From: a phage
Sequence record: PZ445428.1
Length of the DNA stretch: 64,000 bases
Reading direction: 5' to 3' (one strand)
The notes below the pieces were generated by a model. It was not told where the DNA came from. It searched no databases and saw only the letters and a program-made list of their open reading frames with translations. A program made the position numbers and the translations under genes. Every line of letters begins with the position of its first letter. The stretch's first letter is position 1. Below, in pieces: positions 2,230 to 59,090 of the stretch.

Positions 2230-4789
2230 CGAGAATCCTTTTCACGTTATCCAGATCTTTACATACAGCGATAAACTTATCATCCTTGTACTTGCTGTGG
2301 TCTGGATGCTCTTTATCCATAGCTGCTAACTTCTTGTATTCGAAGTCTGCGTCTAATAATACACCCTTAACATAACGAGTATATTCATCATCATCGATAC
2401 ACGCAATAGACGGGTGCTGTTTCTTCATCTTACCGCAGGAGTAGTCACGAGAACCCCCAGCTTCGGAGTCAGAATCAATACCGATTGGGCAATCAGGAAT
2501 ACTGATACCACGGTCTTTCTGAATGTTACGAATCAGAATCTGGTTATACTGCTCAATCAGATCTTCACGTACAATGGCAACCACGGAGTCGTGAACCAAC
2601 ATGACGATCTTCATCTCCTTTCCTAGACCCAGGGACAGGATTTCTTCATCAGCATCAATAGCACCTAATAGGAGACTGTCAGAAGATGCAGACTGAATGA
2701 TTGCGTTAAATCCAGAACGGATTTCTTCACCCTGAACACCACGATCTTCGGAGTGGATGTTGTGAAGACGACGTTTACGACCAAAGTGACTATAGATGAA
2801 TCCAAAGTTCTTGATCTGATCGTGGCACTTATCAATCCAACGCTTAAGCTGAGGGAACTGACCGAAGTAAGTTTCGATGTAATCTTTCGCATCTGCAACA
2901 GTACATTCAGTGAACGGTTCACCAGTTTTAGCTGCTTGCTCAAGCAATGCTTCGTTAACAGAATGAGCTACCTTAGCTGGGCCAGAACCATACAGAATAC
3001 CGAAGGTAATTGCCTTAGCTGCCTGACGCAGGGCTGGGAACAGTTTCTTAACATCACGTGGTTCACAGGATAACTTAAATACCATGTGGGCGATGTTAGA
3101 GTGGAAGTCAGGATACTTATCCGGCTCATTTTTCATGTTGATGAATACTTGTTGCATGTTTCTGTCACCAGACAGTACAGCAGCATAGTAAACTTCAGCA
3201 GTTGTTAAGTCCCATGCGATTACACGATATCCAGGTGGTGCAACTACACAACCCTTGATAATAGATTCATCACGAGGTAACTGTTGCAAGTTCAGTTTAC
3301 CAGAAGAACTCAGACGACCAGAAGTAGTCATGTGTTCGTGGAAACCTGTACGGATGCAACCATCGGCATCGATACTCAGAAGAATCTTCTCAACATAAGT
3401 AGAGATCAGCTTAGTCAGCTTACGAATCTCTAGCAGAGTCTTAGCAATCGGATGTTGAGTTGCTAATTCATTCAGAGCTTCTGCGTTCGTAGAATCTGCA
3501 CCAGTATCCGTCAACTTACCAGTTGGAGCCAAACCAACATAATCGAACAGAAGAACACGGAGCTGCTTAACAGAGTTCGGGTTAAACGCTTCATTCTGAT
3601 CCTGTTCTAGTTGCTTAACTTCTGGATAAGTATACAGATGCTCACGAGCCTTATTCAGACGATGAGTCAATTGATACTGAGCTTCTTTCAGACGATCTAC
3701 GGAAATAGGTACACCACGATCTTCAACACGTTGCAGGAATACACAACCGGGCATCAGAACTTCGTAATACAGATCACGCAGTTTCTCGTTCTTCTCAATC
3801 TTCGGTAAGAAGAAATTGTGCAGACGCAGAGTCGCATCGGTATCCTTCGCAGCATATGGCCACATAATATCAAATGGAATCAGATCATAGCTGAAATCCT
3901 CTTTCTTGATCTTATGCGCTTTGCAATAATCGTCCTTGAACTTATCGAGTTCAAAGTCGTAGTCACCCATGTCAGTATACTTCATAGCCAAAGATTTCAG
4001 GCCGTGAGTACCACGACGTTCATCGAGAACATAGTGCTGTAACATGGTATCATGAAGTCTACGCTCTTTACTTGCTTTCTCGAAGGAAAGTCCTAGATGG
4101 TAGGAGTAAAAGTGCATATCGAACTTCAAGTTATGGAAAACAATGTCATGCTTCTCACTGTCCAGGATCTTCTGGAGATAATGGACTGTCACTTCCGTAA
4201 GCACATCGGCATCAATATAAACACCCTGATACTCTTGGTGAGAAATGGAAACACCAAGCAGATAACCATCACGGCAATACAGAGCCGAGGTTTCGGAGTC
4301 AAATGCGATCGGGCCGATAACCATGGTATACACCATCTTGATGTATTCTTCGGCTTCATCAGGATCTGTAATCGGGCGATAATCACCAGCTTTAGCAATT
4401 TTCTCCCGACCATTAATAATGTCATGAATGCTTTCAACAGTTGCTTCAAAGACTGGTTTCATTTCAGGTTTAAAGTGTAACTGGGCTGGACTAATACTTG
4501 CAATCCAGTTCGCATAGCCATTATGCTCTACACGTTTACCGGTATAATCACCAATACCTTTCTTGCCTGCAAAATACAGGAAAGGTTCAGCACCAACTAG
4601 TACAACAAAATCGTAATCATTCGGATCGAATGGATTCTCTGGAGTTCCAATGGTAATATGCTTTTTCAGCAAACGCCCAGATAACTTCTCGTTACACATA
4701 TGGAATACATCAACTTCCTCACCGTAAAGCTGGAAGTGTTTATCATAACGAGTATTATTTAGAGCTTTATCAACTACTGCAATTTTCAA
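2222..4789 (-). CDS. DNA polymerase, family A, with 3'-5' exonuclease domain
   Basis: 855 aa; exo motif FDSETSALY; Pol I-like motif B RQAAKAITFGILYGSG; motif C LVHDS. Confidence 0.95.
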   Translation of the reverse strand: MKIAVVDKALNNTRYDKHFQLYGEEVDVFHMCNEKLSGRLLKKHITIGTPENPFDPNDYDFVVLVGAEPFLYFAGKKGIGDYTGKRVEHNGYANWIASISPAQLHFKPEMKPVFEATVESIHDIINGREKIAKAGDYRPITDPDEAEEYIKMVYTMVIGPIAFDSETSALYCRDGYLLGVSISHQEYQGVYIDADVLTEVTVHYLQKILDSEKHDIVFHNLKFDMHFYSYHLGLSFEKASKERRLHDTMLQHYVLDERRGTHGLKSLAMKYTDMGDYDFELDKFKDDYCKAHKIKKEDFSYDLIPFDIMWPYAAKDTDATLRLHNFFLPKIEKNEKLRDLYYEVLMPGCVFLQRVEDRGVPISVDRLKEAQYQLTHRLNKAREHLYTYPEVKQLEQDQNEAFNPNSVKQLRVLLFDYVGLAPTGKLTDTGADSTNAEALNELATQHPIAKTLLEIRKLTKLISTYVEKILLSIDADGCIRTGFHEHMTTSGRLSSSGKLNLQQLPRDESIIKGCVVAPPGYRVIAWDLTTAEVYYAAVLSGDRNMQQVFINMKNEPDKYPDFHSNIAHMVFKLSCEPRDVKKLFPALRQAAKAITFGILYGSGPAKVAHSVNEALLEQAAKTGEPFTECTVADAKDYIETYFGQFPQLKRWIDKCHDQIKNFGFIYSHFGRKRRLHNIHSEDRGVQGEEIRSGFNAIIQSASSDSLLLGAIDADEEILSLGLGKEMKIVMLVHDSVVAIVREDLIEQYNQILIRNIQKDRGISIPDCPIGIDSDSEAGGSRDYSCGKMKKQHPSIACIDDDEYTRYVKGVLLDADFEYKKLAAMDKEHPDHSKYKDDKFIAVCKDLDNVKRILGA

Positions 4790-7293: not shown

Positions 7294-8061
7294 TTATTCA
7301 GCAGCCGCAGCTTTTGCATCCAGTTTAGCACGCTTAGCAGCACCATCATAGTCCTTAGCAACCAGACCACGACGAGACAGCATAGATTTAACACCGCGCT
7401 CAGACTTACCAGTTTTCTCAGCGATATCAGCAACAGTCATGTTAGCCAGATCCAGACCTTCTAACAGATCTTCGCGAGTTTTAGCGCTTGAAGTTTCCTG
7501 TACCGGCATTGCAGCGATACGACCTTCACGAAGCAGGCTCAGAGCTTTACCACGGATCTGCTTGATATTGCGACCGAAGTGAGCAGCGATAGCTTCAATA
7601 GTTGCACCAGCAACAACCTGATTAACGAAATCAGTTTCTTCGTCAGGAGTGAAGGAACGAACGGCAGCAGCTTTTTCAGTTGGCTTAACAGCAGCAGTCA
7701 TTTCCAGACTCAGAATCTTACCCTGTACCTGCTTAGCACCGAACTGACCACCAGCTACAGCAGCAGCGATTTCAGCGTAGGTATACTGACCAGCATGAGA
7801 GTTCAGGAAATCAACCAGTTCAGCTTCCTGCTCAGGAGTCCACGGGGATTTCTGTACTTCGTTAGCTTTCTGTACTTCGAAGCCTTCTTTACGCAGCTTA
7901 GAACCAACAGAGCGGGCGGTTACGTCCTTGCCAGTTTCAGCAGCCAGTTCTACAGCGATAGCAGCAACTTGTTCTTGAGAGATTACAGCTACACCCAGAG
8001 CAACGGCTTTAGCTTTCAGAGACTCGGTTACACCTTCTACGTTCCAGTTCAGTTTAGACAT
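7294..8061 (-). CDS. DNA-binding protein with four tandem HTH-like repeats
   Basis: 255 aa, Ala-rich; four repeats of the form acidic-x-[TI]xxEIAxxxGxxxxxV[RK]xKxxSLxRxG. Confidence 0.6.
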   Translation of the reverse strand: MSKLNWNVEGVTESLKAKAVALGVAVISQEQVAAIAVELAAETGKDVTARSVGSKLRKEGFEVQKANEVQKSPWTPEQEAELVDFLNSHAGQYTYAEIAAAVAGGQFGAKQVQGKILSLEMTAAVKPTEKAAAVRSFTPDEETDFVNQVVAGATIEAIAAHFGRNIKQIRGKALSLLREGRIAAMPVQETSSAKTREDLLEGLDLANMTVADIAEKTGKSERGVKSMLSRRGLVAKDYDGAAKRAKLDAKAAAAE

Positions 8062-8063
8062 TA

Positions 8064-8837
8064 TTATTTTTTCTCCAATAGTTCTTTAATCGACAGGATT
8101 TCTATCCCATTCGTTTCGGCTTTCTTATAAGATGAGGAAGAACGCTTTGATTCATCCTCACAGATGAGGTAGTTTACGTCTTTGGTAACGGACTTCTTAA
8201 CCGTATATCCTAGACTTTCTAAGTAGTTTGTTGCATCCGTTCTATTTGCAAAATCTTGCAAAGAACCGGTAATACATACCACGATTCCGTTCGGTTGAGC
8301 AACTAAATCATCGATAAAGATGATATCAGCTTTTGTGCCCCGAATACCAGAACTAAATTTCCATGGTAGTTCGATAACATCCTTGCCTTGTGGGGAATTT
8401 AGCCAGGCTTTATAATTTTCTCCAGCTTTGCCGTCAGCCTTAACATCATTAAAACTAATGCAACCCTGGGATAGCTTTTTAGCAGCAACCTCTCCAATCA
8501 GAGGGATTCCTAAAGAACCGAGAACTGAACCAAAGTCAATGTCTCCGCGAACCTTAGTATTTAACTCGCTAATTAACTTAGCGGCAACCTTACTTCCCAC
8601 AGCTCCGACCAAATCTTCTTCGGTCAGGTAAAACAGTTCTGAGATCTTAGTCAGTTCCAGCTTTTCAATTGTTTTCGGGCCAAAGCCCTTTAACTTCATC
8701 TTTGTGCAGAAGTTCTCAATTAACTTACTTGACTGAGCTGGACAGTTGGACTTATTCCGACAGAATAATTGTCCGTTGACAAGATCTAGCTTAGAACCAC
8801 AAGAGGGACATTGTGTTGGAATTTCGATTTTCATCAA
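8064..8837 (-). CDS. ligB: NAD-dependent DNA ligase, C-terminal subunit (Zn finger, HhH, BRCT)
   Basis: CPSCGSKLDLVNGQLFCRNKSNCPAQ zinc finger followed by HhH-like and BRCT-like segments; located downstream of the adenylation subunit. Confidence 0.75.
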   Translation of the reverse strand: MMKIEIPTQCPSCGSKLDLVNGQLFCRNKSNCPAQSSKLIENFCTKMKLKGFGPKTIEKLELTKISELFYLTEEDLVGAVGSKVAAKLISELNTKVRGDIDFGSVLGSLGIPLIGEVAAKKLSQGCISFNDVKADGKAGENYKAWLNSPQGKDVIELPWKFSSGIRGTKADIIFIDDLVAQPNGIVVCITGSLQDFANRTDATNYLESLGYTVKKSVTKDVNYLICEDESKRSSSSYKKAETNGIEILSIKELLEKK

Positions 8838-21610: not shown

Positions 21611-22360
21611 ATGGGAAAACTGCGTCAGAAAAGAGAAACCCGTAACGGGTCAAGAAAGCGTAACAGCAACTACGAAGATAACATTATTCAGGGAAACTTC
21701 TCTGATTTTGCTATTCCCGTTGCTAAGTCCCTAGAAGGTAAAAACAAAGAGCAAAAATCATATATCAATATGATCAAGAACAACACCATTACCGTTGGTA
21801 TTGGTGAACCAGGTACGGGTAAGACTTTTATCCCTTCCGTTCTTGCTGCTCAGGAACTTACTAATCCTCGCTCTAATATTGAGCAAGTGATTTTAGTGCG
21901 TCCTAACGAACCTCTAGGCAAATCTCTTGGGATGCTACCGGGTGACCTGGCTGAGAAGCTAGAACCTTGGCTGGAACCGATTGCAGATGGCATGAAATGG
22001 GCTATAGGTGATCAGGCATATAAAGGGTATGTAGAACGTCAGAAAGTTAAATTCCTGGCTATCGAGCATGCTCGTGGACGAACTTTCAACAACTCCTATG
22101 TGATTGTCGATGAAGCTCAGAATATCTCAGTCGAAGCAATGATCTGTCTCCTAACTCGTGTAGGACAAGATTGTCGCTTAGTCATTTGCGGAGATATCGC
22201 TCAGAAAGACATTAAGGGTGACTCAGGCTTAGCACTTCTAATGGAAGTGTATAAGAGGTATGATTACTCTCCATTCTCAATGATTGAACTTATTGAGAAC
22301 GTACGTTCCCGAGAATCTAAAGCATTCTATGACATCTTTAAAGAGATGGGGCTGGTGTAA
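21611..22360 (+). CDS. phoH: PhoH-like ATPase
   Basis: Walker A GIGEPGTGKTF and Walker B VIVDEAQN; start moved to ATG after TAGGAG. Confidence 0.85.
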   Translation: MGKLRQKRETRNGSRKRNSNYEDNIIQGNFSDFAIPVAKSLEGKNKEQKSYINMIKNNTITVGIGEPGTGKTFIPSVLAAQELTNPRSNIEQVILVRPNEPLGKSLGMLPGDLAEKLEPWLEPIADGMKWAIGDQAYKGYVERQKVKFLAIEHARGRTFNNSYVIVDEAQNISVEAMICLLTRVGQDCRLVICGDIAQKDIKGDSGLALLMEVYKRYDYSPFSMIELIENVRSRESKAFYDIFKEMGLV

Positions 22361-54545: not shown

Positions 54546-54627
54546 TATTTTTGTAATAAAATTTCAGTTGCGTAGATGCCCAAAGTCTTGTATAATATGT
54601 TTATAGATTGAGGCAAAAGGATAATTT

Positions 54628-55326
54628 ATGAGAATCATTTCAAAGTTTAATGATGTTTATGATTTACAGAACAGTTTATTTGACCCCGACCGTGTTTGGG
54701 AACGTAAATCAGACGAGATTCTGGTAAAAGTAACTGAAGATGTAGAAAAGAACATCGTTCATGATCGCCAAGTATTTCAAGAAGGCTCTATGTCCTTCCG
54801 CGGTGACTTCGAGTATCATGTAAATCCACTATTCGTTGCAGGTGAAGTGTACTGGTTACATGGGTTATACTGCTGGCATCCAAAATTCAGCTTCAAAACG
54901 TTTAATCTCGATGCAGTGTTCGACAAAATGGAAGAAATGGGATTACACGCTCGCTCTTACTTACTAGACAAAAGTCGTGGTGATGTTCGAGAATCCATGC
55001 GAGATATGCTGATTGAGGCAAAACCAAAAGCAGAACGTATCTTATCTGAGCTGAGAGTACCGATTGCGTATGTGAAGGGTATTAAGAAGAACGACAACGA
55101 TGATATTCGTAACTTCGTTATTCAGACCAACATTCGTTTCCATCAGTCAGGTATTCCGTGGCAGGAAATTGAAAGTAACTTATATCGTTTACACCAAGTT
55201 CTCGAACAGTATATCTTCGGAGTGCTAGGAACTGGTGAGCCTGATATGATCACCGTATCAGATAAAGACAGGTTAGCAGCTCATGGTTTCGATACAAAAA
55301 CTTCTTTCAGGAATATGGCAAGGTAA
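54628..55326 (+). CDS. hypothetical protein
   Basis: 232-aa ORF after promoter TTGCGT-17-TATAAT. Confidence 0.55.
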   Translation: MRIISKFNDVYDLQNSLFDPDRVWERKSDEILVKVTEDVEKNIVHDRQVFQEGSMSFRGDFEYHVNPLFVAGEVYWLHGLYCWHPKFSFKTFNLDAVFDKMEEMGLHARSYLLDKSRGDVRESMRDMLIEAKPKAERILSELRVPIAYVKGIKKNDNDDIRNFVIQTNIRFHQSGIPWQEIESNLYRLHQVLEQYIFGVLGTGEPDMITVSDKDRLAAHGFDTKTSFRNMAR

Positions 55327-55732
55327 GTGGTATATTCTGGGAGCTGGACTAGCGATAGGCATCGGATTTGGTGCTTATCATCTAGTAAATAAGGTAGAGA
55401 CTTTAGCAGGAGATCTAGCGGTAGCTACTAAAAAGATCTCAACTCTAGAAACTTCCTTAAACAAGGTGAAAGCAGAGAGTGAACAGCGTGAAACACGCAT
55501 GAATCAATACTTCACTTTCCACAACATTTCACAACAAGATCTTGATAAAAAGATCGCCCAGCTTGATAAAGCTCTTAGTCGTCAAGACATTATAGCTGCA
55601 AAGCCTGGACTGGTAACATTAATAGCTAAAAAGCAGAGTAAAGAGTTCGAGGAAAGATTAGCATGTTTAACTGGAAACTTGGAATACTGCTCGCAGCCGC
55701 AATCACCGTCACAGGCTGCGCAGAAACGGTAG
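55283..55732 (+). CDS. candidate i-spanin-like protein (N-terminal TM plus coiled coil)
   Basis: TM segment WYILGAGLAIGIGFGAYHLV followed by heptad-rich region; 3' end overlapped out-of-frame by the lipoprotein gene. Confidence 0.4.
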   Translation: MVSIQKLLSGIWQGKWYILGAGLAIGIGFGAYHLVNKVETLAGDLAVATKKISTLETSLNKVKAESEQRETRMNQYFTFHNISQQDLDKKIAQLDKALSRQDIIAAKPGLVTLIAKKQSKEFEERLACLTGNLEYCSQPQSPSQAAQKR

Positions 55733-56016
55733 TACCAGAGCCGTCACATGAGTTAAAGCAAGCCCATGTGGATTGGCCTAAAGGACTTCAGCCTTGTAGC
55801 TTTGATTTCAAATTCGAAAAGAAACTAGCTACAAATGGTGAAGATGGCGTAGTAGTTGTTGTACCGTATAAAGATTGGAATATGTTAGCGAAATGTCGTG
55901 AGGCAGAATTTTCGTATATTTCAAGACTGACTAGTATGGTTTGCTTCTACCGCCAAGATTTACAAGAACAACGTTGCTTAGTTTACTATCCACCCATTAC
56001 AAATAGGAAAGATTAA
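55663..56016 (+). CDS. lipoprotein, candidate o-spanin-like
   Basis: Signal peptide with lipobox LAAAITVTGC; five further Cys; overlaps the upstream gene by about 70 nt in another frame. Confidence 0.4.
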   Translation: MFNWKLGILLAAAITVTGCAETVVPEPSHELKQAHVDWPKGLQPCSFDFKFEKKLATNGEDGVVVVVPYKDWNMLAKCREAEFSYISRLTSMVCFYRQDLQEQRCLVYYPPITNRKD

Positions 56017-56762
56017 TGTCAGTATTAGTCGGTTTACATGGTGAGGCTGGTGCGGGGAAAGATACCGTAGCAAAATTGATGTTAGAATGGTGCAATGATA
56101 CGTTCCCAACGTATTTAGCCCGCCAATACAGTTTTGCTAAACCCGTTTACGAACTTGCATCCGTAATCCTCGGGGTAACTCCAGAGTTTCTGGGAGAGCG
56201 CAGGGGAAAAGAGGTTAGTCAATGGTTTAATGTGACTCAATCTCAATTGGAGCGAGCTAGGGATGTGTGGTTTAAATACGGAATCGACAAATATGAAGAC
56301 TTCTCGTACGTTTGGCCGATTTTTGAAGGAAAATACCTTGATCCTCAGCAGCTTATCAGTCAGGAGGAAGCACTATATAGTGTATTTATCTCCCCAAGAA
56401 AGATGCTACAGCTTGTAGGTACTGAGTTAGGAAGGCAGCTGGTGCATGAACGCATTTGGCTCATAATTCTGGAGCAATCCATCGCTAAAGACGACCCAGA
56501 CGTCGCCGTAGTAACAGATGTGAGATTCCCTAATGAAGGAGAGTTGATCAGAGAAACAAATCGTCTAGATATGGATTCTCTGTTAGTAAATGTCGTACCC
56601 GCGGAACGTGAATATACTATAAAGACAAACCATCCGTCAGAAAATGGTATTCCCGTTAAATACATTACTCACGAATTTGTTAATACATTCGAGGGTATGC
56701 ACAACCTTAAACTAGAAGTAAATAACTTCTGTGACTTAGAGCTAGAACCACTAGTTGGATAA
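56016..56762 (+). CDS. deoxynucleoside monophosphate kinase
   Basis: P-loop GLHGEAGAGKDT of the T4 gp1 type. Confidence 0.6.
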   Translation: MSVLVGLHGEAGAGKDTVAKLMLEWCNDTFPTYLARQYSFAKPVYELASVILGVTPEFLGERRGKEVSQWFNVTQSQLERARDVWFKYGIDKYEDFSYVWPIFEGKYLDPQQLISQEEALYSVFISPRKMLQLVGTELGRQLVHERIWLIILEQSIAKDDPDVAVVTDVRFPNEGELIRETNRLDMDSLLVNVVPAEREYTIKTNHPSENGIPVKYITHEFVNTFEGMHNLKLEVNNFCDLELEPLVG

Positions 56763-56775
56763 TTAAAGGATCACT

Positions 56776-57375
56776 ATGACTAATAAGAAAGAAGAGAAGA
56801 CTAACCTGTTTCACACTGTTCGCCAATCTAACGAATATACCTTTTTCTTTGACGAAGAATTAGGTTCACCAGATGAGTATCGTGATCTTTCAATGATACT
56901 GATGCAGGCTGGTGAAGAAGATGAAATTAATCTGATGATTAATGGGCCTGGTGGTTATGTTGATACTGCTGCACAGCTATCTAACCTGATTGCCAACTGT
57001 CGTGGAACGGTTATTGGACACCTGCTCGGTCCTAGTGCCTCTGCTTACTGCACAATCTTCCTGTCTTGCCACGGTTGGGTTGTACATCCACATGCTACGC
57101 TTATGGGACATACGTTCTCTGGCGGATTCTGTGAGAAAGGTCAAGAAATCAAGAAAGCCTATGAATCTTACAACCAGTTCGTAGAAGATATGATGCTCGA
57201 TGTTTACTTCCCGTTCTTCTCCATCGATGAAATCGAGGATATGGTAAAAGAGAATAAAAATATCTATCTCGACAGCAAAGAAATCAATAAGCGTATTGAA
57301 GTATTGGCGAACTATCGCAAAGAGCAGTACAGTAAAGCTCAATGCCCTCATCCAGAAGAACATGGAGAAGTGTAA
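56776..57375 (+). CDS. ClpP/S14-family peptidase-like protein
   Basis: INGPGGYVDTAAQLSNLI, GPSASAYCTIFL and MGHTFSGGF align with ClpP catalytic-core segments. Confidence 0.6.
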   Translation: MTNKKEEKTNLFHTVRQSNEYTFFFDEELGSPDEYRDLSMILMQAGEEDEINLMINGPGGYVDTAAQLSNLIANCRGTVIGHLLGPSASAYCTIFLSCHGWVVHPHATLMGHTFSGGFCEKGQEIKKAYESYNQFVEDMMLDVYFPFFSIDEIEDMVKENKNIYLDSKEINKRIEVLANYRKEQYSKAQCPHPEEHGEV

Positions 57376-57385
57376 GTAATTTTAA

Positions 57386-57416
57386 GCCAGAGTTTAACGA
57401 CTCTGGCTTTTCTTTT
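57386..57416 (+). terminator. intrinsic terminator
   Basis: GCCAGAG...CTCTGGC hairpin followed by TTTTCTTTT. Confidence 0.7.
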
Positions 57417-57531
57417 GCCTAAAATTCTTCTTGACAACGATAAAAAATTGTGCTCCAGAAGTGAACTTTAAAAACACGTTGTAATTTTCCTCTAGACTTA
57501 GTATAATGGTAATGGTTAGAGGAGGTTACAA

Positions 57532-58188
57532 GTGGAAAAGTTTCTACAACTATTAACGGTACTGCTCCAAGAAGCGAAAGATCCAGCTTCGCTTCTAAAA
57601 CGTCTGCTAACTATCTTAGTTGCTGTCATTATTTTCTTATTTGTTAGTAATACTAGCGAGGTGATGTCATTTTTAAAGACTTTCTCCACGTCTGCGGTTT
57701 TACAGGATGTTCAAACCCAAAGGATCGATAACTTTCCTAATATAGCTCGAGAAAAGAGTATGGTGCTTTTCTCGCAAACGGGTGCGGATGCTGTTTTTGT
57801 AGTCAAGTATAAACCCGATGCTATTAATGATTATTCCAACATTATCGCATGGGAGAGCAATGCGCAATTAGATAGGGCTGACTTGGCCGATAAAGCAGTA
57901 AATAAGACGTCTGAAATGTATAGACGTCACCTGGAAGGCTTTAACTACGCTTCGGACTTAACTGTAAAGATTAATAAATATATGGGGGCAAATATCCCTA
58001 CGTTTAAGAACGTTACATTTAATTATATTTACACGTGTCCGTATTTCAACCTGAATAATATCTACGCTGGATATGTAGGTATTGCATGGAAGGATAAACC
58101 CGTAGATACAGCTGACTCGGAACAATTTAACGAGTACTTAACAAAGCTTTGCTCACCGCAGCAAAGATCATTAGGTAGATCTATATGA
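57532..58188 (+). CDS. holin-like membrane protein
   Basis: GTG start; N-terminal TM LLTILVAVIIFLFV; immediately upstream of and overlapping the endolysin gene. Confidence 0.5.
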   Translation: MEKFLQLLTVLLQEAKDPASLLKRLLTILVAVIIFLFVSNTSEVMSFLKTFSTSAVLQDVQTQRIDNFPNIAREKSMVLFSQTGADAVFVVKYKPDAINDYSNIIAWESNAQLDRADLADKAVNKTSEMYRRHLEGFNYASDLTVKINKYMGANIPTFKNVTFNYIYTCPYFNLNNIYAGYVGIAWKDKPVDTADSEQFNEYLTKLCSPQQRSLGRSI

Positions 58189-58598
58189 GTTTTAAATTTG
58201 GTAAAAATAGCGAAAAACAACTTGCTACTGTAAAACCCGAGCTACAAAAGGTAGCTCGGAGAGCATTAGAACTGTCTCCTTACGATTTTACTATCGTTCA
58301 AGGGATTCGTACTGTTGCTCAAAGTGCCCAAAACATTGCTAATGGCACATCATTCCTCAAAGATCCTAGTAAGAGTAAACACGTTACTGGAGATGCAATC
58401 GATTTTGCACCATATATTAATGGTAAGATTGATTGGAACGATCTTGAGGCATTTTGGGCTGTTAAGAAGGCTTTCGAACAAGCTGGAAAAGAATTGGGCG
58501 TGAAACTTCGTTTCGGGGCTGACTGGAATGCATCTAACGATTATCGTGATGAAATTCAACGTGGTACCTACGACGGTGGTCATGTAGAATTGGTTTAA
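58185..58598 (+). CDS. endolysin, M15-family L-alanyl-D-glutamate peptidase
   Basis: 137 aa; zinc-ligand motifs SKHVTGDAIDF and DGGHVEL; matches the size and family of the T5 endolysin. Confidence 0.8.
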   Translation: MSFKFGKNSEKQLATVKPELQKVARRALELSPYDFTIVQGIRTVAQSAQNIANGTSFLKDPSKSKHVTGDAIDFAPYINGKIDWNDLEAFWAVKKAFEQAGKELGVKLRFGADWNASNDYRDEIQRGTYDGGHVELV

Positions 58599-58610
58599 AT
58601 AGTAAGGTAA

Positions 58611-58631
58611 GGCGGGGTTCTCCCGCCTTTT
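58611..58631 (+). terminator. intrinsic terminator after endolysin
   Basis: GGCGGG-gttct-CCCGCC followed by TTTT. Confidence 0.65.
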
Positions 58632-58673: not shown

Positions 58674-59090
58674 ATGTTTGCAGAACTATTCACAATGACG
58701 CTATTAGGTATCTGGAAAATAAGTCTGATAGTGTTCGTCTTAATGATAATTTTAACTATAGTCGCACTAGTCACCCAAAATGACCTACTAAAAAGAGTCA
58801 TCCAAGGGCTAGAGTATATAATTATGGGCACATTCGGTGTTTGCAAATGTAAATGCCAGAGGAATACGAAATATTGTTGGTTATGGATGGAATTAGAAAG
58901 CTGTCTATCTGTCGCCTTGGCTGTCTCATTCGGTATGATTCTTATGGCCCTTACTCTAGCACTGATACCATTAATGCTGGCTGGGGGAGTCACGGCTTAT
59001 TTCACTCTTTTCTCCCCTATACTTATGTATTCAATCTACCCAATCACTATGTTCTTAGTGAGGAAGAGATTCCCGCATATTGCACATTAA
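58674..59090 (+). CDS. hypothetical multi-pass membrane protein
   Basis: 138 aa, three or four TM segments; AGGAGAAAGCC upstream. Confidence 0.5.
   Translation: MFAELFTMTLLGIWKISLIVFVLMIILTIVALVTQNDLLKRVIQGLEYIIMGTFGVCKCKCQRNTKYCWLWMELESCLSVALAVSFGMILMALTLALIPLMLAGGVTAYFTLFSPILMYSIYPITMFLVRKRFPHIAH

What the first reader, a model, noticed from the sequence alone, without database searches (positions are those of the whole stretch)
56016..58598. Lysis-region organisation with nucleotide kinase and ClpP-like protein before holin and endolysin
The endolysin and the overlapping holin-like gene are preceded by a dNMP kinase and a ClpP-like peptidase with apparently intact catalytic-core segments. 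A phage ClpP-like protein outside a head-morphogenesis context is unusual and could act on host or phage proteins early in infection.
Basis: partly seen in the sequence, partly recalled or inferred. Interest (0 to 1): 0.4.

Follow-up and report, generated by a model that had tools for sequence, protein, structure and literature searches.

The report
T5-type early block with Clp-like peptidase
This is the already annotated spanin, nucleotide kinase, Clp-like peptidase, holin and endolysin block found in every T5-like phage; the only open point is what the widespread, never-tested Clp-like peptidase does.

Summary
The window is 100% identical to Escherichia phage TrudiGerster (Bas27), a T5-like phage. 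The same order occurs in about 450 T5-like genomes and is annotated in the T5 reference.

- The two spanin genes lie directly upstream.
- A strong terminator and a promoter separate the Clp-like gene from the holin, so there are two transcription units.
- The phage has its own S78 prohead protease in the head module.

The Clp-like protein (199 aa) has a ClpP fold. Ser89 and His112 align with the ClpP nucleophile and base and are invariant in 167 relatives. The third triad residue is Asn162 in the T5 clade and Asp or Glu in most other relatives. The docking pocket for ClpX/ClpA and the N-terminal axial loops are not conserved, so the "ATP-dependent" label is unsupported.

The family (phrog_1827) occurs in about ten unrelated lineages of large virulent phages, always among replication or nucleotide-metabolism genes. 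A non-head location is therefore normal for it. Its function is unknown, and a T5 knock-down screen scored it "Not Fit".

Verdict: already known, low interest.

The parts
54568..54596 (+). Promoter-like site of unit 1: TTGCGT, 17 nt spacer, TATAAT. It lies 31 nt upstream of the first gene.
   Evidence: Read directly from the sequence. The T5 reference annotates a promoter at the equivalent place, upstream of T5.047. It is not in the scan output because the first hexamer matches only 3 of 6.
54628..55326 (+). 232-aa protein of unknown function, orthologue of T5.047 and first gene of unit 1. It overlaps the i-spanin start by 44 nt.
   Evidence: phrog_4243, no Pfam hit. T5.047 is scored 'Fit' in the CRISPRi-ART screen. 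AF2 model pLDDT 80.1 with no significant PDB fold match.
55283..55732 (+). i-spanin (inner-membrane spanin subunit)
   Evidence: phrog_739, E 3.5e-37. Annotated as i-spanin in MZ501108. T5.045 is annotated as similar to T4 PseT.3/PseT.2-region proteins.
55663..56016 (+). o-spanin (outer-membrane lipoprotein subunit). It overlaps the i-spanin gene by 70 nt. Lipobox VTG|C.
   Evidence: phrog_812, E 8.4e-29. N-terminus MFNWKLGILLAAAITVTGC read. Its stop codon overlaps the kinase start, TAATG.
56016..56762 (+). Deoxynucleoside monophosphate kinase (dnk, orthologue of T5.043)
   Evidence: phrog_139, E 3.3e-48; Pfam DNMK 39.9 bits against a cutoff of 27.1. P-loop GEAGAGKD at residues 9-16. The T5 nick-site sequence is conserved at 56177-56218.
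56776..57375 (+). ClpP-fold serine peptidase (ClpL; orthologue of T5.042; phrog_1827). Ser89, His112, Asn162, oxyanion Gly60.
   Evidence: dN/dS 0.04-0.07.
57384..57409 (+). Intrinsic terminator that ends unit 1: 11-bp stem, 4-nt loop, then TTCTTTT.
   Evidence: dG -18.4 kcal/mol, z -5.5, 0 of 200 shuffles fold as well. T5 annotates a terminator at the same place.
57479..57507 (+). Promoter-like site of unit 2: TTGTAA, 17 nt spacer, TATAAT. The RBS AGGAGG follows.
   Evidence: T5 annotates a promoter at the same place.
57532..58188 (+). Holin of the T4 gpT type (GTG start), with a single N-terminal transmembrane segment
   Evidence: Pfam Phage_holin_T, E 5e-114. phrog_860. PDB T4 holin chains 6PXE/6PX4, E 3e-16.
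58185..58598 (+). Endolysin: L-alanyl-D-glutamate peptidase (M15C), the EndoT5 orthologue
   Evidence: PDB 2MXZ, E 4.1e-88 over residues 1-137. phrog_465. ATGA overlap with the holin.
58609..58629 (+). Terminator-like hairpin after the endolysin: 8-bp GC-rich stem, then UUUU.
   Evidence: dG -15.2 kcal/mol, z -2.75. T5 annotates a terminator at the same place.

Best explanation
The region is the conserved early-region block of T5-like phages (Demerecviridae). It consists of two sigma-70-type transcription units.

Unit 1 encodes a 232-aa protein of unknown function, the i-spanin, the o-spanin, the dNMP kinase and the Clp-like peptidase. The genes are tightly packed or overlapping, and the unit ends at a strong intrinsic terminator. 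Unit 2 has its own promoter and encodes a T4-type holin and the EndoT5-type endolysin, joined by an ATGA overlap.

The Clp-like protein belongs to a large phage-specific family (phrog_1827; T5.042 is the prototype). By sequence it is closer to ClpP-related prohead proteases than to cellular ClpP.

Shown here:
- It has the ClpP fold.
- The nucleophile Ser89, the base His112 and the oxyanion Gly60 are invariant across the family.
- The third triad residue is Asn162 in the T5 clade and Asp or Glu in most other relatives.
- The gene is under strong purifying selection.
- The N-terminal axial-loop segment and the hydrophobic pocket that binds the ClpX/ClpA IGF/IGL loop are not conserved.

Inferred:
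- It is an active serine peptidase that assembles on its own and does not use host ClpX or ClpA.
- It is made in the early or middle phase and works in the cytoplasm alongside the replication and nucleotide-metabolism machinery.
- It is neither the head protease nor part of the lysis mechanism.
- Its position next to lysis genes reflects the T4-like scattering of lysis genes among early genes, not a functional cassette.

The substrate is unknown.
For: Identity and conservation of the block:
- 100% match to TrudiGerster, and the same block in 450 phage records.
- The order is kept in Demerecviridae down to 31-45% amino-acid identity.
- The T5 reference annotates the same genes, terminator and promoter.
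- Terminator dG -18.4 kcal/mol, z -5.5.

The Clp-like protein:
- AF2 model with pLDDT 81.6; every listed top PDB hit is ClpP.
- hhalign probability 97.8% to E. coli ClpP, pairing Ser89 with Ser111 and His112 with His136.
- Ser and His are present in 167 of 167 family members. Position 162 is D 136, E 17, N 8, T 5, Y 1.
- Asn is fixed in the Markadamsvirinae loci examined apart from one apparently frameshifted locus (L026); the other Demerecviridae loci have Asp.
- dN/dS is 0.04-0.07.
- The IGL pocket residues listed in bioRxiv 10.1101/820209 map to N52, M54, N74, H82, H104 and Q44.
- NCBIfam canonical ClpP models score 16-19 bits against cutoffs of 228-347. The best hit is the ClpP-related head maturation protease model.

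Context:
- A separate S78 prohead protease sits in the head module.
- Family members lie among PhoH, RNR, thymidylate synthase/DHFR, ligase, primase, helicase and methylase genes in about ten lineages.
- There is only one copy in the 97.7 kb of the genome that was scanned.
Against: - No biochemical or genetic result exists for any member. The BF23 paper states that the function is unknown.
- Asn in place of Asp may mean low or conditional activity, as in Listeria ClpP1.
- The pocket mapping rests on a 16-18% identity alignment and on a monomer model. Oligomeric state could not be tested.
- The protein was detected in purified BF23 virions. That does not fit a purely cytoplasmic role.
- A lysis gene lies within about 2.5 kb in Demerecviridae, in Acinetobacter phage BS46 and in Mydo; ICP1 (gp5-type tail lysozyme) and RudolfGeigy (putative glycosidase) have possible lysis genes at that distance. 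A lysis link is therefore not excluded.
- The CRISPRi-ART screen scored T5.042 'Not Fit'. Any role may be conditional.
Confidence: 0.55

Rival explanations
1. The protein is a true ClpP-type proteolytic subunit with an intact triad. It docks onto host ClpX or ClpA and degrades host or phage proteins early in infection in an ATP-dependent way.
For: - ClpP fold.
- Pfam CLP_protease score above the gathering cutoff.
- Ser and His aligned with the ClpP catalytic residues.
- Location in the early region.
- Annotated as 'ATP-dependent protease' in many records.
Against: - Asp is replaced by Asn162.
- IGF/IGL pocket residues Y60, Y62, F82, I90 and L114 map to N, M, N, H and H, and are polar across the family.
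- The N-terminal axial-loop segment is missing or unaligned.
- Canonical ClpP NCBIfam models score more than ten-fold below their cutoffs.
- No phage-encoded AAA+ partner was seen next to the gene in any lineage.
Confidence: 0.13
2. The protein is a virion-associated or morphogenetic protease. It would process a tail or capsid protein, or be packaged and delivered into the next host.
For: - It was detected in purified BF23 virions at an MS intensity (2.8e7) similar to low-copy tail proteins.
- The closest curated and PHROG families after its own are ClpP-related head maturation proteases.
Against: - The same virion preparation also held dihydrofolate reductase, an early enzyme. Carry-over of soluble phage proteins is therefore plausible.
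- The gene lies in an early unit far from the structural module, which has its own S78 protease.
- None of the lineages examined places the gene next to portal, scaffold or capsid genes.
- It scores 40 bits against a cutoff of 120 for NF045542.
Confidence: 0.1
3. The gene is linked to lysis. The peptidase would tune lysis timing by processing or degrading the holin, a spanin or a regulator. That would explain why it sits between the spanins and the holin.
For: - It is in the same unit as both spanins and directly upstream of the holin and endolysin.
- Lysis genes also lie within about 2.5 kb in Vibrio phage D258, where the endolysin overlaps it, in Acinetobacter phage BS46 (Rz-like gene adjacent) and in Mydo. 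ICP1 has a gp5-type tail lysozyme and RudolfGeigy a putative glycosidase at that distance.
Against: - A terminator and a promoter separate it from the holin.
- It has no signal peptide or membrane segment, whereas most of the holin and spanin mass is periplasmic.
- Six lineages have no lysis gene nearby: L036, L037, the metagenomic large-phage lineage, Xoo-sp13, KoPa-4/Pakpunavirus and Barbavirus.
- From my own knowledge, T4 uses the same holin and spanin types without such a gene.
Confidence: 0.08
4. The protein is an attenuated or regulatory subunit. With Asn in the triad it would be active only in a mixed complex, as Listeria ClpP1 is with ClpP2, or it would act as a decoy that perturbs the host Clp system.
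For: - The Ser-His-Asn configuration matches Listeria ClpP1, which forms an aligned, active triad only in the ClpP1/P2 complex.
- Asn is present in every Markadamsvirinae locus examined except the apparently frameshifted L026.
Against: - Identity to E. coli ClpP is only 16%.
- No second Clp-like gene was found in the 97.7 kb of the genome scanned.
- Sister Demerecviridae keep Asp in the same gene context, so the family's basic role does not need Asn.
- Ser and His are under strict conservation.
Confidence: 0.07

Closest known systems
Phage T5 genes T5.047 to T5.040 (NC_005859), and the identical annotated record Escherichia phage TrudiGerster MZ501108.1 (bas27_0151 to bas27_0157)
   Same: The genes, order, overlaps, and the terminator and promoter between the protease and the holin are the same. 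The window is 100% identical to TrudiGerster.
   Different: T5 carries an extra HNH homing endonuclease (hegF) between T5.047 and the spanins, which is absent here.
Cellular ClpP (E. coli ClpP, MEROPS S14)
   Same: Same fold, with TM 0.58-0.66 among the listed ClpP matches. The nucleophile Ser, base His and oxyanion Gly are at aligned positions. The size is similar.
   Different: - Identity is only 16%.
- Asn replaces the triad Asp.
- The N-terminal axial loop is not conserved, and the IGF/IGL pocket residues are polar.
- It fails the curated ClpP family cutoffs.
Listeria monocytogenes ClpP1
   Same: It has the rare Ser-His-Asn triad.
   Different: ClpP1 is a close paralogue of a partner, ClpP2, in the same cell and works in a heterocomplex with ClpX. 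No partner paralogue was found here, and the docking features are missing.
ClpP-related phage head maturation proteases (NCBIfam NF045542; phrog_1684, phrog_94)
   Same: These are the nearest families by profile score after its own: phrog_1684 E 4.5e-20 and NF045542 E 2.9e-10. As a rule they are ATP-independent (my own knowledge).
   Different: - The score is well below the family cutoff, 40 against 120 bits.
- The gene is not next to portal, scaffold or capsid genes.
- The phage has a separate S78 prohead protease.
T4 lysis genes t (holin), pseT.3/pseT.2 (spanins) and their scattered layout
   Same: The holin is of the T4 gpT type. The T5 spanins are annotated as similar to T4 PseT.2-region proteins. 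As in T4, the lysis genes lie among early and nucleotide-metabolism genes rather than in a lambda-style cassette (my own knowledge for T4).
   Different: The endolysin is an M15 peptidase, not a T4 lysozyme. From my own knowledge, T4 has no Clp-like gene.

Membership tests
Canonical ClpP (ATP-dependent Clp protease proteolytic subunit, MEROPS S14) | ClpP/crotonase-type fold | tested here: met
   AF2 model pLDDT 81.6. Every listed top Foldseek PDB hit is ClpP, TM 0.58-0.66, E about 1e-8.
Canonical ClpP (ATP-dependent Clp protease proteolytic subunit, MEROPS S14) | Ser-His-Asp catalytic triad | tested here: not met
   Ser89 and His112 align to Ser111 and His136 of the E. coli precursor. The Asp185 position is Asn162.
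Canonical ClpP (ATP-dependent Clp protease proteolytic subunit, MEROPS S14) | Hydrophobic pocket for the IGF/IGL loops of ClpX/ClpA, and N-terminal axial loops | tested here: not met
   The residue list comes from bioRxiv 10.1101/820209. The mapping is Y60 to N, Y62 to M, F82 to N, I90 to H, L114 to H and A52 to Q, and these positions are polar in the family. The N-terminal segment is unaligned. This is alignment-based at low identity.
Canonical ClpP (ATP-dependent Clp protease proteolytic subunit, MEROPS S14) | Score above curated family thresholds | tested here: not met
   NCBIfam ClpP models score 16-19 bits against cutoffs of 228-347. Only the broad Pfam CLP_protease domain model is passed, 30.4 against 20.2 bits.
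Canonical ClpP (ATP-dependent Clp protease proteolytic subunit, MEROPS S14) | Double-heptamer barrel and ATP-dependent degradation with an AAA+ partner | not testable with these tools
   Only monomer prediction was available.
Phage T5.042-type Clp-like peptidase (phrog_1827) | Full-length profile match | tested here: met
   E 3.7e-88 over residues 1-198 of 199. 526 cluster representatives reach E<=1e-30 with the family profile.
Phage T5.042-type Clp-like peptidase (phrog_1827) | Invariant Ser, His and GG oxyanion motif, with an acidic or Asn third residue | tested here: met
   Ser89, His112, Gly59 and Gly60 are present in 167 of 167 members. Position 162 is D/E in 153, N in 8.
Phage T5.042-type Clp-like peptidase (phrog_1827) | Located in a replication or nucleotide-metabolism module, not in the head module | tested here: met
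   In this phage it is next to the dNMP kinase.
ClpP-related head maturation protease (NF045542) | Score above the cutoff, and adjacency to portal, scaffold or capsid genes | tested here: not met
   40.3 bits against a cutoff of 120. The head module lies elsewhere and has an S78 protease.
T4-type holin (Pfam PF11031 Phage_holin_T) | Full-length profile match, and a single N-terminal membrane segment with a large C-terminal domain | tested here: met
   E 5e-114 over residues 3-217. T4 holin PDB chains match at E 3e-16. The hydrophobic stretch LLTILVAVIIFLFV was read.
EndoT5-type L-alanyl-D-glutamate peptidase (M15C) | Near-identity to the solved enzyme, and zinc ligands His66, Asp73 and His133 | tested here: met
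   2MXZ, E 4.1e-88 over residues 1-137. H66, D73 and H133 are present in the translation. Their role as ligands is from my own knowledge.
Two-component spanin, overlapped architecture | An i-spanin with an N-terminal membrane segment, plus an o-spanin lipoprotein gene that starts inside it in another frame | tested here: met
   phrog_739 and phrog_812. 70-nt overlap and lipobox VTGC.
T5-type dNMP kinase | Family profile match and a P-loop | tested here: met
   phrog_139, E 3.3e-48; Pfam DNMK above its cutoff. GEAGAGKD motif. No solved relative was found by sequence.

The most novel reading that the evidence does not exclude
The T5.042/phrog_1827 proteins may be an unrecognised class of phage proteolytic machine. 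They would be ClpP-fold peptidases that work without ClpX or ClpA. They are kept in the replication and nucleotide-metabolism modules of about ten lineages of large virulent phages, often a few genes from a PhoH-like ATPase. They may have their own partner or their own activation mechanism. In the T5 clade the Ser-His-Asn triad could make activity conditional on such a partner, by analogy with Listeria ClpP1. They would then act on defined host or phage targets during takeover.
Probability: 0.1. Interest if true: 0.55.

Novelty: already known. Interest (0 to 1): 0.18.

Why it matters
As posed, the finding adds nothing new. The gene order is annotated in the source record and in the T5 reference, and it is shared by hundreds of T5-like genomes.

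Two points have some value:
- The "ATP-dependent Clp protease" label carried by many phage records is not supported by the docking features. The T5 clade also carries an Asn in the triad.
- This peptidase family is widespread, strongly conserved and never characterised. It is a reasonable target for a simple biochemical and genetic study, but nothing here points to a specific surprising function.

Tried and rejected
- **Literature.** Searches for any functional study of a T5-type or phage-encoded ClpP found none. The only statements found are "function currently unknown", with detection in BF23 virions, and "Not Fit" in the CRISPRi-ART T5 screen. That screen called only 17 genes Fit and missed the endolysin and structural genes, so I treat "Not Fit" as weak evidence.
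- **Defence-system models.** PADLOC gave no hits for ClpL or its neighbours.
- **dNMP kinase.** A sequence search of the PDB found nothing.
- **Triad geometry.** I wanted to measure it in the model, but the coordinates are not exposed.
- **Metagenomic contexts.** The seven metagenomic large-phage contexts all share one layout, so I count them as one lineage, not seven.
- **PhoH-like ATPase as partner.** It recurs nearby in several lineages, but in this phage it is 35 kb away. This is left as an idea only.
- **232-aa first gene of the unit.** The model was confident, but there was no significant fold match, so it gave no lead.
- **Head-protease role.** Rejected, because the phage has an S78 prohead protease in the head module.
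Full report
**What the window is.** A 4.2-kb query around the finding is 100% identical to Escherichia phage TrudiGerster (Bas27, MZ501108.1; Demerecviridae, Markadamsvirinae, Epseptimavirus). It matches 450 phage records at 80% identity or more, and 424 of them cover at least 80% of the query. Window position equals record position minus 32,480. The record already annotates i-spanin, o-spanin, dNMP kinase, Clp-like protease, holin and endolysin at these places. The window as a whole is the early region, holding replication genes, nucleotide metabolism genes, tRNA genes and the lysis genes.

**Check of the observation.**
- dNMP kinase, 56016-56762: phrog_139 E 3.3e-48; Pfam DNMK above its cutoff.
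- Clp-like protein, 56776-57375: Pfam CLP_protease 30.4 bits against a cutoff of 20.2; phrog_1827 E 3.7e-88.
- Holin, 57532-58188: Pfam Phage_holin_T E 5e-114.
- Endolysin, 58185-58598: phrog_465.

The endolysin is essentially EndoT5 (PDB 2MXZ, E 4e-88). The holin matches the solved T4 holin. The holin and endolysin overlap by ATGA.

1. Directly upstream lie an overlapped i-spanin/o-spanin pair (55283-55732 and 55663-56016; phrog_739 and phrog_812). The o-spanin stop overlaps the kinase start as TAATG. A 13-nt spacer separates the kinase from the Clp-like gene. A 232-aa gene (54628-55326) opens the unit and overlaps the i-spanin start.
2. Between the Clp-like gene and the holin there is a strong intrinsic terminator at 57384-57409: an 11-bp stem, dG -18.4 kcal/mol, z -5.5, with no shuffle folding as well. 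A promoter-like site follows at 57479-57507, and then an AGGAGG ribosome-binding site. Another hairpin follows the endolysin.

The T5 reference annotates the same layout: T5.047, a homing endonuclease, spanins T5.045/044, dnk T5.043, "ATP-dependent protease" T5.042, terminator, promoter, holin C1, lys, terminator. The "lysis region" is therefore two transcription units. The kinase and the Clp-like gene belong with the spanins, not with the holin and endolysin. The order holds across Demerecviridae even where the proteins share only 31-45% identity.

**The catalytic residues.**
- An AlphaFold model built on 15 homologues is confident (pLDDT 81.6, pTM 0.77). Every listed top PDB match is ClpP, with TM 0.58-0.66.
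- A profile comparison of 61 family members with E. coli ClpP gives 97.8% probability. It pairs Ser89 with the nucleophile Ser111 (precursor numbering) and His112 with His136.
- MAFFT and phmmer alignments place Asn162 at the position of the catalytic Asp185.
- An exhaustive profile search found 526 cluster representatives at E<=1e-30. Among 167 aligned members, Ser89, His112 and the oxyanion Gly59-Gly60 are invariant. Position 162 is Asp in 136, Glu in 17, Asn in 8, Thr in 5 and Tyr in 1.
- The Asn is present in all but one of the 27 Markadamsvirinae loci examined (the exception, L026, looks frameshifted); the other Demerecviridae loci have Asp.
- The gene is under strong purifying selection, with dN/dS 0.04-0.07, similar to the holin and endolysin.

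Two of the three triad residues are thus strictly kept, and the third is a clade-specific Asn. The same Ser-His-Asn arrangement is known from Listeria ClpP1, where the triad only aligns in the ClpP1/P2 heterocomplex (PMC9765437, PMC12900304).

**Is it a ClpP in the functional sense?** Probably not.
- The residues of E. coli ClpP that form the IGL/IGF loop pocket are L48, F49, A52, F82, L23, Y60, Y62, I90, M92, F112, L114 and L189 (bioRxiv 10.1101/820209). Here they map to M, I, Q, N, unaligned, N, M, H, L, V, H and unaligned, and most of these positions are polar across the family.
- The N-terminal segment that forms the axial loops has no counterpart and is not conserved.
- Curated NCBIfam ClpP models score 16-19 bits against cutoffs of 228-347.
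- The best curated hit is the ClpP-related head maturation protease model, itself far below its cutoff. PHROG head-protease families follow phrog_1827 in score.

The "ATP-dependent" label in many records is therefore unsupported. This rests on a low-identity alignment and a monomer model, and assembly could not be tested.

**Is a non-head location unusual?** No.
- The phage has its own Peptidase_S78 prohead protease between the decoration and major capsid genes (record 4051-4680). It is unrelated to the Clp-like protein.
- A family member from a metagenomic phage matches 1639 phage records by tblastn. These include T5-like phages, ICP1, Vequintavirinae, Pakpunavirus, Barbavirus, Acinetobacter BS46 and the jumbo phage Xoo-sp13. 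BFVD fold matches agree.
- In every lineage inspected the neighbours are replication or nucleotide-metabolism genes:
  - PhoH, an exonuclease and a helicase (L036); DNA polymerase, a methylase, PhoH and RNR (L037).
  - Thymidylate synthase, DHFR, ligase, primase and topoisomerase II in one metagenomic large-phage lineage.
  - RNR, PhoH and ligase in ICP1.
  - NTP reductase, PhoH and a methylase in Vequintavirinae.
  - dCMP deaminase and ligase in KoPa-4 and Pakpunavirus.
  - Ligase and primase in Xoo-sp13.
  - A methylase and a phosphatase in Barbavirus.
- None has portal, scaffold or capsid genes next to it.
- A lysis gene lies within about 2.5 kb in Demerecviridae, BS46 and Mydo, and ICP1 and RudolfGeigy have a lysozyme or glycosidase gene at that distance. 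None was seen in the other six lineages. I treat this as a weak, unexplained tendency.

**What is known experimentally.** No functional study was found.
[quoted passage not shown] The same preparation held dihydrofolate reductase, an early enzyme, so carry-over is plausible (PMC10644984).
- In the CRISPRi-ART screen of T5, T5.042 was "Not Fit" (-4.47, p 0.90). So were dnk, both spanins and lys. The holin C1 and T5.047 were "Fit" (PMC11879866 supplements). Only 17 genes were called Fit, so this is weak evidence of dispensability on a laboratory host.

**Best explanation and rivals.**
- *Most likely (0.55):* a conserved early-region block of two units. Within it, the Clp-like gene encodes an active ClpP-fold serine peptidase that works without ClpX or ClpA. 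It acts in the cytoplasm during the early or middle phase, on an unknown substrate. Its position beside lysis genes reflects the T4-like scattering of lysis genes among early genes.
- *Rivals:* a true ClpX/ClpA-dependent ClpP (0.13); a virion or morphogenetic protease (0.10); a lysis-timing role (0.08); an attenuated or hetero-oligomeric subunit like Listeria ClpP1 (0.07).
- Only one Clp-like gene was found in the 97.7 kb of the genome scanned.

**Verdict.** It is partly wrong: the triad is not intact Ser-His-Asp, and the location is not unusual. Novelty: already known. Interest: low.

Noticed in passing
window 54628-55326 (+): The 232-aa first gene of the spanin, kinase and Clp-like unit (phrog_4243, no Pfam hit) is the orthologue of T5.047, one of only 17 'Fit' genes in the CRISPRi-ART T5 screen, and its function is unknown. 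A confident AF2 model (pLDDT 80.1) has no significant PDB fold match (best E 0.055). The C-terminal motif SDKDRLxAHGFDxxTSFRNMxR is nearly invariant.
   Followed up: partly
window 56177-56218, inside the dNMP kinase gene: The sequence around the 'major DNA single-chain interruption' annotated in the T5 dnk gene (NC_005859 22336-22337; GCGC-containing nick consensus) is conserved here with 5 mismatches in 42 nt. This phage may carry the same genomic nick.
   Followed up: partly
Loci L036, L037, L092 (ICP1), L093 (RudolfGeigy), L094 (Mydo), L084-L089: A PhoH-like ATPase gene lies 1-5 genes upstream of the Clp-like gene in five lineages. It lies about 5-6 kb upstream in four of the seven contigs of the metagenomic large-phage lineage. 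In TrudiGerster the PhoH-like gene is 35 kb away, at window 21611-22360.
   Followed up: partly
Loci L084-L090 and L096 (Xoo-sp13): In one metagenomic large-phage lineage and in the jumbo phage Xoo-sp13, a 337-362 aa primase-like gene (phrog_47; no Pfam hit on record) sits immediately downstream of the Clp-like gene. Acb1 and DHFR genes lie upstream in most of the metagenomic contigs.
   Followed up: partly
Locus L026 (IMGVR_UViG_2974601769_000001), around 7945-8539: The Clp-like ORF reads ...KDNKK-YLSR around residue 162, which looks like a frameshift or sequencing error in an otherwise 96% identical gene.
   Followed up: no
window 58674-59090 (+): A 138-aa gene lies directly after the endolysin terminator (phrog_5944, unknown function). 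It matches the T5.039 family (phrog_5944), and T5.039, annotated with four transmembrane segments, follows the endolysin in T5. It may be a lysis-associated membrane protein.
   Followed up: no
window 56776-57375 compared with locus L004: Synonymous divergence of the Clp-like gene from L004 is 0.20, while the flanking genes range from 0.35 to 1.13. This suggests recent recombinational exchange of this gene within the block.
   Followed up: no
Protein P0001: A 91% identical Clp-like protein is filed in NCBI under Brucella melitensis on a 115-kb contig. This is most likely a T5-like phage contig mislabelled as bacterial.
   Followed up: no
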